From the NCBI GenBank assembly GCA_028279505.1, contig JANQNP010000042.1:93-64092 (forward strand): a stretch of DNA of 64,000 nucleotides. Direction: 5' to 3'. The notes under the pieces were generated by a model. That model was not told the origin of the DNA and did not search any database. It saw nothing but the letters and a program-made list of their open reading frames with translations. The DNA is from Dehalococcoidia bacterium. GTDB lineage: Bacteria > Chloroflexota > Dehalococcoidia > UBA2979. Within the stretch, counting starts at the first letter, position 1, and every line of letters begins with the position of its first letter. The position numbers and the translations under genes are program-made. Shown here one piece after another: positions 56,081-64,000 of the stretch.

Positions 56081-57328
56081 CTAGTCGGGCGGCCCCATCC
56101 CGGTGATCGCCCGCGCCTCGAGGTCCGCGTACTGCGCGTCGTCCACGCCGAGGAACTCCCGTAGGACTTCGCGCGAGTGTTCGCCGTGCAGCGGGGATGG
56201 TCCGGTCACCTCCATCGGGGTCTGCGAGAAGCGGTACGGCACCGCGGCCTGGCGCCACGGGCCGGCCTCGGAGTGGGCGACTTCCTGGATCACGCCGCGC
56301 TCGGCGAAGACCAGATCATGTGCGACGCCGATCGCATCGAGGACGGGCGCGGCGATCACACCCGCGCCGCCCAGCCACTCCGCGAGGGCGTCGCGATCGT
56401 GCTGGGCGGTCCACTCGGCGATCGCCTCGTCGAGCGCTACCTCGTTGGCGCGACGCGCCTCGTTCGAGGTGAAGCGACCGTCGTCCTCCCAGCCGCGCCC
56501 GGCGATCGCGCACAGCGCCGACCACTGGCTCTCGTCCTCGGTGGCGATCGCGATCCAACGTTCTTCGCCTCGCGCCGGGTAGATGCCGTGCGGGGCGAAG
56601 CTGAGGCTGCGGTTGCCAAGTCGTGGCCGGAGCGCCCCCGTCAGCGCGTACTGCAACGTGGCGTCGCCGACCAACGTGTGGTTCGACTCCATCATCGAGA
56701 CGTCGACGAACTGCCCCTCGCCGGTGCGGAGCCGGTGGAACAGCGCCGTCACGATCGCTGCGAAGCCGTAGTAGCCAGAGACTGGGTCGGGGTACATCGC
56801 CCCCGAGTTCAGCGGCTGCCCATCCTCGTAGCCGAGCAGCGCAGACATGCCGGCCGCCGGCTCGACTGTGCCGCCGATCCCGATGAACCGCTCGTACGGA
56901 CCGCTGGCACCGAAGGCCGAGATGCTGCAAGCGATCACGTCGGGCCGGATTTCGCGGAGCGCCTCGTATCCGAGGCCGAGGCGGTCCATCACGCCGGGCG
57001 CGAAGTTGTCGACCACGATGTCGGCGGATGGGACGAGGCCGCGGAACAGTTCGACGCCCTCGTCTGCCTTGAGATCGAGCGTGATCGCTCGCTTGTTCAG
57101 ATTGACCGAGTTGTAGAAGCCGCTGCAGTTCCAGGCGTTCCGTGCGCTCGTCACGGACTGCAACGCATCCGGAACGGGGCTATCGAAGCCCATGCGCCAG
57201 ACGTCGGGTCGCTGGCGAGCCTCGACCTGGATCACCTCGGCGCCGGATAGCGCGAGCAACTCGGTCGCGAAGGTGCCGGACCAGGCCTGCGTGGCCGCAA
57301 GCACGCGAACGCCGTCGAGCGCGGTCAT
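56081..57328 (-). CDS. Family III CoA-transferase (CaiB/BaiF-like)
   Basis: N-terminal LDGVRVLAATQAWSGTFATELLALSGAEVIQVE and central SAFGASGPY-type region. ATGA overlap with the upstream gene. Confidence 0.8.
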   Translation of the reverse strand: MTALDGVRVLAATQAWSGTFATELLALSGAEVIQVEARQRPDVWRMGFDSPVPDALQSVTSARNAWNCSGFYNSVNLNKRAITLDLKADEGVELFRGLVPSADIVVDNFAPGVMDRLGLGYEALREIRPDVIACSISAFGASGPYERFIGIGGTVEPAAGMSALLGYEDGQPLNSGAMYPDPVSGYYGFAAIVTALFHRLRTGEGQFVDVSMMESNHTLVGDATLQYALTGALRPRLGNRSLSFAPHGIYPARGEERWIAIATEDESQWSALCAIAGRGWEDDGRFTSNEARRANEVALDEAIAEWTAQHDRDALAEWLGGAGVIAAPVLDAIGVAHDLVFAERGVIQEVAHSEAGPWRQAAVPYRFSQTPMEVTGPSPLHGEHSREVLREFLGVDDAQYADLEARAITGMGPPD

Positions 57329-58497
57329 GCGGTCTCCCCGCTCGCAACACCCCGCTGGAGCAGCTGGCGGTCGCGACCCAGCAGTCGCGTCAGCGCCTCG
57401 TCGCTGTGCTCGCCGATCTCCGGTGCGGTGGTGCGCAGCTCCGCGGGCGTCGCGCTGAGGCTGAACGGCGAACCCGGGAACGCGACATCGCCGCCCTCGG
57501 CTGGCGGCCGGAACCAGTCGCGCGCCTGCATCTGCTGGTTCTCCATCAGCGCGGCGGCGTCCAGCACCGGCCCCACCGTGATGTGCAGCGGAGAGAGCAG
57601 GTCGAAGACCTCCTCGGGATCGAGTTCGGCCAGGCGCTCATTGAGCGCTCGCATCACTTCCGGATCTGCCGAGGCACGCGCGGGCGCGTCAGCGGAAATG
57701 CTCGAGGCGAGATCGTCGAGTCCGACGGCTCGCAGCGCGCCCGCCAGCCGCGCGCCACGGTTCAGACCAGCGGTGACATAGCCGTCCCGCACCCGGCCGG
57801 GGTACGTGGAAGACATCTGGGACTCGCTGTTGCGCCGAGGGAGCTCACCCTCGTACTGGGCGCGCAGCATGCTGCGGCTGAAGATCGTGGCCATCGAATC
57901 GGCCTCGGCGATGTCGATGTGCTGACCGCGGCCCGTCAGCTCTCGGTGGCAGAGCGCGGTGATCACCGCCCCGTAGGCAGACGTCCCCGCGGTGAACGAC
58001 GCCGTGTAACCGCTGCCCTTGAGCGGCTCGCGGTCGGCGCGCCCGTTCACCGACGCCCAGCCGGACCACGCGTACGCAGTGAGGTCATTGCCCGGCAGGT
58101 CCGACCTCGGACCGGTCTCCCCGTTCGCCGTCACGCTGATCGAGACGAGCTCCGGCCTCGAGGCGTGCACCCGATCAAGGTCCAGACCGCGCTCGGCGAA
58201 CGCCGACCAGCCGGAGTGCACGACCACGTCGACCGCCTCGAGGAGTTCGCCGATCACCCGCGCGGACTCCGGTTCGTCGAGGTCCAGCGCGATCGACTGC
58301 TTGTTCGCGAGCACATAGGTCGCGGCGATCGAGCGCTCGCGCTCATCGAAGGGCGCGAACTGTCGAATCCTTAGACCCTCGAGCGGCTCTACCAGCACGA
58401 TGTCCGCGCCGTTGTCGGCCAGCAGCCGCGTGCACCACGCGGCCGCCATCGAATCGGACAGATCGAGGACCGACACGCCGTCGAGCGCGCGCGTCAC
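57325..58497 (-). CDS. Family III CoA-transferase (CaiB/BaiF-like)
   Basis: GTG 58497 overlaps the upstream TGA (GTGA). Sequence LDGVSVLDLSDSMAAAWCTRLLADNGADIVLVE. Confidence 0.75.
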   Translation of the reverse strand: MTRALDGVSVLDLSDSMAAAWCTRLLADNGADIVLVEPLEGLRIRQFAPFDERERSIAATYVLANKQSIALDLDEPESARVIGELLEAVDVVVHSGWSAFAERGLDLDRVHASRPELVSISVTANGETGPRSDLPGNDLTAYAWSGWASVNGRADREPLKGSGYTASFTAGTSAYGAVITALCHRELTGRGQHIDIAEADSMATIFSRSMLRAQYEGELPRRNSESQMSSTYPGRVRDGYVTAGLNRGARLAGALRAVGLDDLASSISADAPARASADPEVMRALNERLAELDPEEVFDLLSPLHITVGPVLDAAALMENQQMQARDWFRPPAEGGDVAFPGSPFSLSATPAELRTTAPEIGEHSDEALTRLLGRDRQLLQRGVASGETA

Positions 58498-62848: not shown

Positions 62849-63019
62849 GTCACTCCAACTGACTCACTTCGTGTTCTCGAACTGCTCGACGGACGGTTCA
62901 CGGAACTGCGTCCCTAAGGCGACAACGTCGCTCACCGAGGGCGGTGGCTGCTGGTCCGAGTAGCGGGCGATGCCCACGTGGCGATCTGCGCGCCCGCTAT
63001 CTCGGATCGGTCGCCGCGA

Positions 63020-64000
63020 CTAGGCCCCCATCCAGAGGTCCCGCAAGAGCGGCGCGTACCAGAGGTATTGGATGCCCTGGACGTTTGCGTCGTTGCGGAC
63101 GTAGGTCCAGCGATGACGATCCAGACCGGGGAGCACGGAGTAGATCTCGTCCGCGAGGATGGTGTTGACCTCCTGGTAGATCTCCTTCCGCTCGTCCTGG
63201 TCGTACGTGGCGGCTGCTGCGTCGAGGAGTGCCGAGTCGAGGCTCGGGACCGCGGCGTAGCCGGTGTTGTAGATCGCGTTCGCTCGGTAGAGGGTGCTGT
63301 AGTTGACGTCGGGGTCCGGGCGCAGCGACACGCCACTTGGCGAGGCCCACATACCGTCGCCGCCATCGCGGGCGGGACCACCGCCAGCCGGCCGATCGAC
63401 CAGGTAGTTGACCTCGATGCCAACCTTCGCCATGTCGTCGACGAAGAGCGTCACGGCATCGGGGCCACCCCACACTCGGGCCGCGCCGGCGACGTTGAAC
63501 TTGCGCTCGCCCTCCGGCACGCCTGACTGCTCGAGCAGCTGCTTGGCCATCTCCGGGTCGTACGACGGGAAGTTGTCCTGCGGCTCGTACGCCCAGCTTC
63601 CGGTCGGAACCGGGCCGGCCATCGGCGGATTCAGTCCGCCGTAGAAGAGCTCGTTGAAGACGTCGCGGTTCCACGCGTGGGAGACCGCTCGGCGGAAGAG
63701 CTTGTTGTTCAGCGGCGCGATGCCGTGGTTCCAGTAGACCGTCACCATCGCCGCGCCCGGGTTGCCGACGGTGGTCACGTTGGGATCGTCGACGAGCTCC
63801 TGGAACACCCGGAACGGTTCTTCGATGTAGTCGATCTCGCCCGCTTGGAGCGCGGCGACGATCACGGTCTGGTCCGGGATGATCCGGACTGAGATGTCGT
63901 CGAGGTAGGAGGCAGGCCGGCCTTCGGCGTCCTTCAGCCAGTAGTCCTCGTTGCGCTCGAATTGCAGATCAGACTCATCGCGCCAGCTCGTGAGCTTGTA
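63020..64000 (-). CDS. ABC transporter substrate-binding protein, family 5 (peptide/nickel type). The 5' part lies beyond the window.
   Basis: The frame stays open to the window edge. Family-5 SBP C-terminal region. Stop is at 63020. Confidence 0.7.
   Translation of the reverse strand, partial: YKLTSWRDESDLQFERNEDYWLKDAEGRPASYLDDISVRIIPDQTVIVAALQAGEIDYIEEPFRVFQELVDDPNVTTVGNPGAAMVTVYWNHGIAPLNNKLFRRAVSHAWNRDVFNELFYGGLNPPMAGPVPTGSWAYEPQDNFPSYDPEMAKQLLEQSGVPEGERKFNVAGAARVWGGPDAVTLFVDDMAKVGIEVNYLVDRPAGGGPARDGGDGMWASPSGVSLRPDPDVNYSTLYRANAIYNTGYAAVPSLDSALLDAAAATYDQDERKEIYQEVNTILADEIYSVLPGLDRHRWTYVRNDANVQGIQYLWYAPLLRDLWMGA

What the first reader, a model, noticed from the sequence alone, without database searches (positions are those of the whole stretch)
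56081..64000. Four consecutive family III CoA-transferase genes followed by Dpp-type permeases and SBP without ATPase genes
Four CaiB/BaiF-type genes are chained by ATGA/GTGA overlaps, and the third is more divergent. This is an unusual redundancy, suggesting a CoA-shuttling pathway for several related dicarboxylate or hydroxy-acid substrates. In the same orientation upstream lie two peptide-type ABC permeases and a family-5 SBP, but no nucleotide-binding subunits. Either the ATPases are shared with one of the other Dpp systems in this window, or the operon is degenerate. Together with the ACAD, crotonases, cyclase and MaoC-like pair, this forms a catabolic island for an unidentified acid.
Basis: partly seen in the sequence, partly recalled or inferred. 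Interest (0 to 1): 0.5.

Follow-up and report, generated by a model that had tools for sequence, protein, structure and literature searches.

The report
Two split CoA-transferases, ATPase-less importer operon
The four CoA-transferase genes are most likely two two-subunit enzymes, each with one catalytic and one non-catalytic subunit, in an acid-degradation operon whose uptake system belongs to a widespread group of transporters that carry no ATPase genes of their own.

Summary
On the minus strand a family-5 binding protein, two Dpp-type permeases and four PF02515 CoA-transferase genes follow one another. The transferase genes are joined by GTGA/ATGA overlaps, and no ATPase gene is present.

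An identical 19-kb contig extends the locus past the window end.

The "fourfold redundancy" reading does not hold. The two outer genes (CT-A, CT-D) keep the catalytic Asp. The two inner genes (CT-B, CT-C) have Ser there, as do their whole families, and the BbsE subunit of benzylsuccinate CoA-transferase likewise lacks the Asp.

- CT-A and CT-B are adjacent in 16 of 16 related loci.
- CT-C and CT-D are fused into about 800-residue two-domain proteins in most relatives.

The best reading is therefore two heteromeric enzymes.

The missing ATPases are not decay. The same ATPase-less arrangement recurs in at least five distant loci, and in 25 of 39 evaluable metagenomic relatives of the permease. 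The trait also clusters on the permease tree. ATPases are most likely supplied in trans, which is inferred, not shown.

The two "hypothetical" genes fold as double-hotdog MaoC-like hydratases. The substrate is unknown. Overall this is a new member of known kinds, of moderate interest.

The parts
63020..64000 (-). C-terminal 326 residues of a family-5 solute-binding protein. The full protein has 566 residues and its 5' end lies outside the window.
   Evidence: PF00496, E 1.8e-41. The full gene is on L001 at 7305-9005 and carries a Tat motif (SRRRLL) and a lipobox (LVGC).
61886..62848 (-). DppB/OppB-type permease, 320 aa.
   Evidence: PF00528 and PF19300. The EAA loop is intact.
60990..61883 (-). 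DppC/OppC-type permease, 297 aa.
   Evidence: PF00528 and PF12911. The EAA-loop residues DYV..A...GA.......RH..PN are invariant in 5 orthologues. No ATPase gene follows it.
59651..60958 (-). CT-A: family III CoA-transferase with the catalytic Asp ('VFADTL'), 435 aa. Proposed catalytic subunit of enzyme 1.
   Evidence: PF02515, 283 bits. Best PDB hit is 9fn0_B (benzylsuccinate CoA-transferase subunit), E 2.5e-49. Asp column.
58494..59651 (-). CT-B: family III CoA-transferase paralogue with Ser in place of the catalytic Asp ('SQASHV'), 385 aa. Proposed non-catalytic partner of CT-A.
   Evidence: (Ser aligns to Asp of 4hl6, 4ed9 and 10uh). The family never has Asp or Glu at this position. It is adjacent to a CT-A orthologue in 16 of 16 loci.
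57325..58497 (-). CT-C: family III paralogue with Ser in place of the catalytic Asp ('YTASFT'), 390 aa. [quoted passage not shown]
56081..57328 (-). CT-D: family III CoA-transferase with the catalytic Asp ('MYPDPV'), 415 aa. It is homologous to the C-domain of two-domain proteins. Proposed catalytic partner of CT-C.
   Evidence: PF02515, 342 bits. 9fn0_B, E 1.1e-61. Also.
55232..56056 (-). Crotonase-family enoyl-CoA hydratase (ECH1), 274 aa.
   Evidence: PF00378. NCBIfam PRK08290, 234 bits, below its cutoff. A 68%-identical orthologue lies next to the transporter in L005.
54322..55170 (-). hypA: double-hotdog MaoC-like hydratase/dehydratase, 282 aa, with no Pfam hit.
   Evidence: AF2 model with pLDDT 91.4. 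Foldseek top hits are 5i7n, 8hgn (MeaC mesaconyl-CoA hydratase), 4e3e and Rv0216. Homologues lie next to CT-A/CT-B in 9 loci.
53430..54278 (-). hypB: tandem paralogue of hypA, 71% identical.
52487..53389 (-). PF04199 'putative cyclase'-like protein, from the superfamily of kynurenine-formamidase-type metal hydrolases, 300 aa.
   Evidence: Best PDB hit is 5ibz, an uncharacterised protein, E 4.7e-31.
51227..52444 (-). Acyl-CoA dehydrogenase, 405 aa.
   Evidence: Three ACAD Pfam domains. Nearest NCBIfam model is the pimeloyl-CoA dehydrogenase large subunit, 261 bits, below its cutoff.
50385..51186 (-). Second crotonase (ECH2), interrupted by a 1-nt frameshift near 51090-51100.

Best explanation
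The region is the 5' two-thirds of one LacI-controlled catabolic operon: SBP, permB, permC, CT-A, CT-B, CT-C, CT-D, ECH, two hotdog hydratases, a cyclase-like hydrolase, an ACAD and a second ECH.

The four CoA-transferase genes encode two heteromeric family III CoA-transferases. CT-A (Asp) pairs with CT-B (Ser). CT-C (Ser) pairs with CT-D (Asp). In each pair one subunit forms the aspartyl anhydride and thioester intermediates. The other is a conserved Asp-less partner that completes the interlocked dimer and probably shapes the acyl pocket. [quoted passage not shown]

Proposed pathway (inferred):
- A lipid-anchored, Tat-exported binding protein hands an organic acid to the DppBC-type permease pair. 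The acid is probably a substituted di- or hydroxy-carboxylate.
- The permease pair is energised by DppD/F-type ATPases encoded elsewhere. The two complete Dpp systems at 11.6-18.1 kb and 18.8-25.0 kb are candidates.
- One transferase activates the acid without ATP.
- The ACAD, the MaoC-like hydratases and the crotonases process the thioester in a beta-oxidation-like way.
- The second transferase handles a second acid or intermediate, or recycles CoA from a product.

Shown: gene content and order, presence or absence of the Asp, synteny, fusion of the pairs in relatives, absence of ATPase genes, and the hydratase fold.

Inferred: physical pairing of the subunits, ATPases acting in trans, the order of the pathway and the substrate class.
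For: Catalytic Asp:
- In HMMER alignments to three catalytic templates, and in a MAFFT alignment, CT-A and CT-D have Asp. CT-B and CT-C have Ser. BbsF has Asp and BbsE has Tyr.
- 34 CT-B family members have S/A/C/H/G there and never D or E.
- In 24 two-domain relatives of CT-C, the C-domain has D in 23. The N-domain has a non-Asp residue in 20.

Pairing:
- CT-A and CT-B orthologues are adjacent in all 16 related loci.
- CT-C and CT-D are adjacent in L002 (twice). They are fused in L004, L005 and L010 and in nearly all of the 150 best representatives.
- The genes are linked by 4-nt start/stop overlaps.
- An NJ tree separates an Asp clade (A, D, BbsF, YfdE) from an Asp-less clade (B, C, BbsE).

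Transporter:
- No ATPase lies in L001, L002, L005, L010 or L018.
- 25 of 39 evaluable metagenomic permC relatives lack any ABC ATPase. The trait clusters, with 40 of 46 nearest neighbours sharing the same status.
- The EAA loops are intact, and the binding protein has export signals.

Regulation:
- On L001 there is a TTGACA-17-TATAAC promoter followed by two palindromes with the core GAAACGTTTC.
- The same core occurs in the divergent promoter region of the LacI-linked cluster L005.

Precedents:
- Shared NBDs (PMC7658222; Borrelia OppB1C1/B2C2 with a single OppDF, PMC5736914).
Against: - No direct evidence that the subunits associate; a heterodimer could not be modelled here.
- CT-C matches BbsE and BbsF equally well.
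- 4 of 24 N-domains in two-domain relatives do carry Asp, so Asp-less N-domains are the rule but not universal.
- The NJ trees have no support values.
- No candidate trans ATPase could be singled out. The orphan permeases are only 35-41% identical to those of the two complete systems. No extra copy of the LacI-type operator occurs in the window.
- The last gene of the operon is frameshifted, which may hint at some decay or may be an assembly error.
- The substrate is not identified. All NCBIfam equivalog scores are far below their cutoffs.
Confidence: 0.65

Rival explanations
1. Four independent homodimeric CoA-transferases with different substrate specificities.
For: All four are full-length PF02515 proteins. 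SAR202 and other Chloroflexota are known for large CaiB/BaiF paralogue expansions, interpreted as broad acyl-CoA metabolism (PMC5395668).
Against: CT-B and CT-C lack the catalytic Asp, as do their families. Pairing is strict, and CT-C/CT-D are fused in relatives.
Confidence: 0.12
2. The Asp-less paralogues are enzymes of a different kind that work on the CoA thioesters made by CT-A and CT-D. Examples would be a lyase, a thioester isomerase, or a transferase using another nucleophile. They would then be active enzymes rather than structural partners.
For: The family III fold also hosts racemases and an intramolecular isomerase (PDB hits). DddD combines transferase and lyase activity (PMC6006322, PMC5395668). 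The CT-B family has its own invariant motifs such as GRQGFPHT and GYTFAPI. Some related 'Asp-less' members carry Glu.
Against: The characterised racemase and isomerase members hit here are much more distant than BbsE and BbsF. Obligate adjacency and fusion with an Asp-bearing domain favour a single composite enzyme.
Confidence: 0.13
3. The transporter is degenerate or non-functional because its ATPase genes were lost.
For: No NBD genes are present. ECH2 in the same operon is frameshifted.
Against: All three transporter ORFs are intact with high GC3, export signals and intact EAA loops. The same ATPase-less layout is kept at 41-59% identity in at least five distant genomes and across a whole permease clade.
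Confidence: 0.07

Closest known systems
Succinyl-CoA:(R)-benzylsuccinate CoA-transferase BbsEF (PDB 9fn0), a heteromeric family III CoA-transferase
   Same: Two adjacent paralogous family III genes. One subunit has the catalytic Asp (BbsF 'NYTDHV') and the other lacks it (BbsE has Tyr). CT-A and CT-D hit BbsF best (E 2.5e-49 and 1.1e-61). CT-B hits BbsE far better than BbsF (1.3e-20 against 1.8e-5). An ACAD and an enoyl-CoA hydratase sit in the same operon, as with BbsG and BbsH.
   Different: Alignable identity is low, and the NCBIfam equivalogs are far below their cutoffs. The gene order for pair 1 is Asp-bearing gene first, the reverse of bbsEF. There are no bss genes and no BbsCD or BbsAB homologues. 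The context is an aerobic-type, transporter-linked operon. That BbsE lacks the Asp comes from my alignment of the PDB sequence, not from a paper.
Two-domain (tandem) type III CoA-transferases such as DddD and PtmU4
   Same: CT-C is homologous to the N-domain and CT-D to the C-domain of about 800-residue proteins. The Asp is kept in the C-domain and usually absent in the N-domain. Such fused genes sit directly after permC in L005 and L010, in the position CT-C/CT-D occupy in L002; in the window CT-A/CT-B lie between permC and CT-C/CT-D.
   Different: Here the two domains are separate genes with an ATGA overlap. No similarity to DddD itself was tested because no sequence was available. No DMSP or thioacid context is present.
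Multitask or shared ABC ATPases: MsmX/MsmK/MsiK for sugar importers, and Borrelia OppDF serving OppB1C1 and OppB2C2
   Same: Operons encode an SBP and two TMDs but no NBD, and energy coupling comes from an NBD encoded elsewhere.
   Different: The well-studied cases are CUT1 sugar systems with a homodimeric MalK-like NBD. This is a PepT/Dpp-type system that normally uses a DppD/DppF heterodimer. Sharing here is inferred only.
Itaconate and mesaconate CoA pathways: family III transferase plus a double-hotdog hydratase (Ict/Ich, Mct/Mch/MeaC)
   Same: A family III transferase sits next to a double-hotdog MaoC-like hydratase. The fold hits include MeaC (8hgn), Chloroflexus 4e3e and PaIch.
   Different: The hydratase has no Pfam or sequence-level match. 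No citramalyl- or malyl-CoA lyase gene is in the operon. NCBIfam scores for the mesaconate transferase and isomerase are 10-30% of their cutoffs.

Membership tests
Family III (CaiB/BaiF) CoA-transferase | Full-length PF02515 domain above the gathering score | tested here: met
   All four proteins score 183-342 bits against a cutoff of 23.3.
Family III (CaiB/BaiF) CoA-transferase | Catalytic Asp (Frc Asp169 equivalent) that forms the acyl-aspartyl anhydride | tested here: met
   Met for CT-A ('VFADTL') and CT-D ('MYPDPV').
Family III (CaiB/BaiF) CoA-transferase, as an active enzyme (CT-B and CT-C) | Catalytic Asp | tested here: not met
   Both have Ser at that column. The Asp is absent family-wide. 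They are fold members but should not be filed as stand-alone transferases.
Heteromeric BbsEF-type family III CoA-transferase | Adjacent genes for one Asp-bearing and one Asp-less paralogue, conserved as a pair | tested here: met
   A/B are adjacent in 16 of 16 loci. C/D are adjacent or fused.
Heteromeric BbsEF-type family III CoA-transferase | Physical hetero-oligomer with activity dependent on both subunits | not testable with these tools
   This needs co-expression and purification, or a multimer model.
[quoted passage not shown] | Two tandem CoA_transf_3 domains in one polypeptide | tested here: not met
   CT-C and CT-D are separate ORFs with a stop codon and an ATGA overlap. Their closest relatives are fused. 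This is a split homologue, not a member by architecture.
PepT (Dpp/Opp) ABC importer | Family-5 SBP plus two TMD subunits with EAA coupling loops | tested here: met
PepT (Dpp/Opp) ABC importer | Two NBD genes (ABC_tran plus oligo_HPY) in the operon | tested here: not met
   None in 50385-64000 or in the 7.3 kb beyond the window. Two complete systems elsewhere in the window do have them.
MaoC-like (R)-hydratase / double-hotdog (hypA, hypB) | Double hotdog fold | tested here: met
   Model pLDDT 91.4. Foldseek E 7e-12 to 1e-7 to MaoC-like dehydratases and MeaC, with TM 0.56-0.62.
MaoC-like (R)-hydratase / double-hotdog (hypA, hypB) | Pfam MaoC_dehydratas match and the canonical hydratase-2 motif (D-x-N-P-I-H) | tested here: inconclusive
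   No Pfam hit even at E 5. G-S-I-H-D is invariant or nearly so in 46 homologues, but the upstream Asp is only a majority residue. One homologue carries PF01575, and three are labelled 'acyl dehydratase' by JGI.
LacI-regulated operon | Adjacent LacI-family gene and palindromic operator(s) with central CG at the promoter | tested here: met
   The LacI gene is on L001 at 6090-7181. The palindromes are ATCGAAACGTTTCGAT and CTCGAAACGTTCCA, downstream of TTGACA-17-TATAAC. A related CCGGAAACGTTTCCGG occurs in L005. Binding was not tested, and all of this lies outside the window.

The most novel reading that the evidence does not exclude
The permease pair belongs to a large, phylogenetically coherent clade of Dpp/Opp-type transmembrane subunits. 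In this clade the operons have durably lost their own ATPase genes. The clade would depend on a 'multitask' DppD/DppF-type ATPase pair, a PepT-family counterpart of MsmX/MsiK. In Chloroflexota-like bacteria this lets many SBP-permease-catabolic modules be added cheaply. Here the module carries split or fused 'one active, one dead domain' CoA-transferases that activate the imported acid without ATP.
Probability: 0.45. Interest if true: 0.6.

Novelty: new member of a known kind. Interest (0 to 1): 0.42.

Why it matters
Annotation pipelines call all four genes "CaiB/BaiF CoA transferase". Counts of such paralogues are used to argue for broad substrate range in Chloroflexota and SAR202. If about half of these genes are Asp-less partners or N-domains, enzyme numbers and inferred substrate breadth are overestimated by up to twofold.

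The locus also gives a compact, testable system: two subunit pairs, a no-Pfam hydratase family and a LacI operator. It could be used to find the substrate of a module that recurs in uncultured Chloroflexota.

The ATPase-less Dpp-type clade suggests that NBD sharing, well studied for sugar importers, is also common in the peptide/opine family. This affects how "incomplete" transporters are scored in metabolic reconstructions of MAGs.

Tried and rejected
- **NCBIfam equivalogs for a substrate.** I tried formyl-CoA, succinate-glutarate, mesaconate, oxalate and carnitine transferases, the mesaconyl-CoA isomerase and PimC. All scored far below their cutoffs, so no assignment was made.
- **Sequence searches of hypA.** Pfam at E 5 and PDB at E 10 gave nothing. 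Only the fold search worked.
- **EAA loops against the two complete Dpp systems.** The aim was to pick the donor ATPase. Identity of 34-41% overall, with generic conservation, is uninformative.
- **Extra LacI-operator copies in the window.** These might have marked co-regulated ATPases. Three hits at 3 mismatches equals the chance expectation.
- **Internal promoters and terminators in 50-64 kb.** The count was at or below the shuffle expectation.
- **Genome scan for the source organism.** The window's own genome is not among the species representatives. All 11 relatives are Chloroflexota MAGs at no more than 50% identity, so the taxon stays unresolved. The cluster look-up gave no accession or name.
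- **afdb50 fold library.** It was unavailable.
- **FecCD/Peripla_BP_2/ATPase genes downstream (46.8-50.1 kb).** I considered this ATPase as the missing partner and rejected it. It belongs to a type II siderophore/B12-like importer with its own promoter-like site.
- **Literature.** I searched for a primary paper on the 9fn0 BbsEF structure and for ATPase-less Dpp/Opp operons in Chloroflexota. I found none in the library.

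
Full report
**1. What is there**

The window has about 70% G+C, so long spurious ORFs abound. A GC3 filter and Pfam single out one co-oriented minus-strand gene string:

- Family-5 solute-binding protein: from beyond 64000 to 63020.
- DppB-type permease: 62848..61886.
- DppC-type permease: 61883..60990.
- Four PF02515 proteins, named here CT-A (60958..59651), CT-B (59651..58494), CT-C (58497..57325) and CT-D (57328..56081).
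- A crotonase: 56056..55232.
- Two 282-aa paralogues without any Pfam hit: 55170..54322 and 54278..53430.
- A PF04199 cyclase-like protein: 53389..52487.
- An acyl-CoA dehydrogenase: 52444..51227.
- A second crotonase: about 51186..50385.

The junctions A/B, B/C and C/D are GTGA (or TGATG), GTGA and ATGA overlaps, read directly from the sequence. The consensus scans find no internal promoter or terminator signal above chance.

**2. Beyond the window end**

The exact permease protein is encoded on a 19,270-bp public contig (L001) that is identical over the shared region. It completes the binding protein to 566 aa. That protein has a twin-arginine motif (SRRRLL) and a lipobox (LVGC).

Immediately upstream lies a divergently transcribed LacI-family regulator. 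Further on are sulfur-carrier and transport genes.

The 124-nt intergenic region holds a TTGACA-17-TATAAC promoter. It is followed by two palindromes, CTCGAAACGTTCCA and ATCGAAACGTTTCGAT, and a GGAGGAGGG ribosome-binding site. A distant relative of the cluster that also has a LacI gene (L005) carries CCGGAAACGATTCCGG and CCGGAAACGTTTCCGG in its divergent promoter region. LacI control is thus plausible and conserved, although it lies outside the window and is untested.

**3. Four transferase genes, but probably two enzymes**

Against solved structures:
- CT-A and CT-D both match one subunit of benzylsuccinate CoA-transferase best (9fn0_B; E 2.5e-49 and 1.1e-61).
- CT-B matches the other subunit (9fn0_A) far better than 9fn0_B (1.3e-20 against 1.8e-5).
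- CT-C matches both equally.

In the HMMER alignments of CT-B to three catalytic templates (4hl6, 4ed9, 10uh), the catalytic Asp is replaced by Ser ('SQASHV'). In its alignment to 4ed9, CT-C also has Ser there ('YTASFT'). A joint MAFFT alignment confirms both. CT-A ('VFADTL') and CT-D ('MYPDPV') keep the Asp. The 9fn0_A subunit (BbsE) has Tyr and 9fn0_B (BbsF) has Asp.

The substitution is not a private lesion. 34 members of the CT-B family show S/A/C/H/G at this column and never D or E. They also have many invariant positions of their own.

**4. Pairing**

The CT-B family is small. A search of 5.8 billion clustered proteins returned 50 other homologues at 40% identity or more, the closest at 56-58%. 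All 11 species-representative genomes that carry it are Chloroflexota MAGs, mostly Dehalococcoidia.

- In all 16 related loci a CT-A orthologue lies immediately upstream of the CT-B orthologue.
- CT-C/CT-D pairs occur twice in L002.
- In L004, L005/L006 and L010 the two are one 800-822-aa polypeptide with the CT-C-like half at the N-terminus.
- An exhaustive HMMER search of 1.84 billion representatives with CT-C returned almost only proteins of about 785-880 aa. The best stretch was usually in their N-domain.
- In 24 of these the C-domain has Asp in 23. The N-domain has a non-Asp residue in 20, and Ser in the closest ones. The C-domains carry CT-D's MYPDPV motif.
- A rough NJ tree without support values separates an Asp clade from an Asp-less clade. 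The Asp clade holds A-type, D-type/C-domains, BbsF, YfdE and 4ed9. The Asp-less clade holds B-type, C-type/N-domains and BbsE.

The most economical reading is two heteromeric enzymes, A+B and C+D, each with a single catalytic subunit. The gene order is Asp, Ser, Ser, Asp. Physical association is inferred, not shown.

**5. The transporter without ATPases**

The window contains three Dpp-type systems:
- 11586-18117: SBP, a hydrolase, permB, permC and two ATPases. This system is complete.
- 18844-25008: SBP, ATPase, permB, permC and ATPase. This system is also complete.
- The system of the finding, which has no ATPases.

Its ORFs are intact. Its EAA coupling loops are conserved, and its binding protein has export signals.

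The same SBP-permB-permC layout, followed directly by CoA-transferase or other catabolic genes and no ATPase, is found in L002/L003, L005/L006, L010 and L018. L018 is a 6.6-Mb contig. Identity to the window permeases in L002, L005 and L010 is 41-59%. In L004 even the permeases are missing, and only SBP genes accompany the transferases.

A metagenome scan with a permC alignment returned 80 loci. Of the 39 with at least 2.5 kb downstream, only 14 have a Dpp-type ATPase there. The other 25 have no ABC ATPase within about 6 kb of permC in the fetched DNA; one of them has a lone opposite-strand ATPase-like match about 4.5 kb downstream. On a permC NJ tree the trait is strongly clustered, with 40 of 46 nearest neighbours sharing the same status. 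The window's permease sits with L010 inside a mostly ATPase-less clade. The permeases of the two complete systems fall with ATPase-linked ones.

Loss of ATPase genes is therefore an old, inherited property of this permease lineage and not local decay.

Energy coupling in trans is the natural inference. Precedents are the multitask NBDs MsmX/MsmK of sugar importers (PMC7658222). Within the Opp family, Borrelia has two permease pairs served by one OppDF (PMC5736914). Which ATPase serves this system could not be determined.

**6. The rest of the operon**

hypA and hypB are 71% identical. They have no Pfam or PDB sequence match. An AlphaFold model built on 46 homologues (pLDDT 91.4) is a double hotdog. 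It is closest to MaoC-like dehydratases, mesaconyl-CoA hydratase MeaC, a Chloroflexus MaoC protein, Rv0216 and itaconyl-CoA hydratase.

Homologues of this protein accompany the CT-A/CT-B pair in 9 loci. The conserved units thus appear to be:
- module 1: LacI, SBP, permB, permC and a two-domain or split C/D transferase, sometimes with a crotonase;
- module 2: the hotdog hydratase and the A/B transferase, sometimes with a crotonase.

In this window the two modules are merged into one operon with an ACAD, a cyclase-like hydrolase (best PDB match 5ibz, uncharacterised) and a second crotonase.

By analogy with the Bbs, itaconate and mesaconate routes, I infer ATP-free activation of an imported di- or hydroxy-carboxylate, followed by dehydrogenation and hydration. 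The substrate remains unknown, since all equivalog models are far below their cutoffs.

**7. Verdict**

The "unusual redundancy" resolves into two BbsEF-like or split two-domain family III CoA-transferases. The "missing ATPases" are a clade-wide trait of the permeases.

Both features are new members of known kinds in poorly characterised families from uncultured, Chloroflexota-like bacteria. The interest is moderate. The main value is a correction to how CaiB/BaiF paralogues and "incomplete" Dpp transporters are counted, plus a well-defined module for substrate discovery.

Noticed in passing
window 50385-51186 (-), frameshift near 51090-51100: The last crotonase of the operon is split between two frames. 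The N-terminus MDYETILVKKADHVATITLNRPERLNAFNPK is in one frame, and the protein continues as MYEELASAAKAV... in another. This is either a real 1-nt frameshift (pseudogene) or an assembly error.
   Followed up: partly
window 56393-56482 (+): ARAGORN calls a 90-nt tRNA-Ala(cgc) antisense inside the CT-D coding sequence. Rfam finds no tRNA or other RNA family anywhere in the window at gathering score. This is most likely a false positive in GC-rich coding DNA.
   Followed up: partly
window 11586-18117 (+) and 18844-28109: Two further, complete Dpp-type ABC systems lie here. One has an alpha/beta-hydrolase/peptidase gene inserted between the SBP and permB. The other has an ATPase-permB-permC-ATPase order, a divergent SBP and two tandem amidase genes (25210-28109) downstream.
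   Followed up: partly
window 390-6246: A cluster of four FHA-domain proteins, one of them an MFS transporter with two C-terminal FHA domains (3835-5733). Large fused ABC exporter genes (two TMD plus two NBD in one ORF) lie at 7842-11462 and 41577-45335.
   Followed up: no
L004 1446-7778; L010 8412-11733; L044 2265-9312: In related loci, several family-5 SBP genes stand in tandem or next to CoA-transferase genes without any permease. There are up to four SBPs in a row before one permB-permC pair. This suggests that in these organisms the SBP is the modular specificity element, while permeases and ATPases are shared to different degrees.
   Followed up: partly
L002 5371-6669; L018 5381-6682: A PQQ-like beta-propeller protein (PF13360/PF13570) is inserted next to the SBP-permease-transferase module in two relatives. 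It is absent from the window.
   Followed up: no
L001 352-5888 (outside the window, upstream of LacI): A sulfur-handling cluster (Sulf_transp, TusA, rhodanese, NicO/DsbD_2) lies next to the LacI regulator. There is no evident link to the operon.
   Followed up: no
window 46852-50106 (-): Directly downstream of the operon is a Peripla_BP_2/FecCD/ATPase type II importer (siderophore/B12-like) with its own promoter-like site at 50126-50098. Its ATPase is of the wrong class to serve the Dpp-type permeases.
   Followed up: partly
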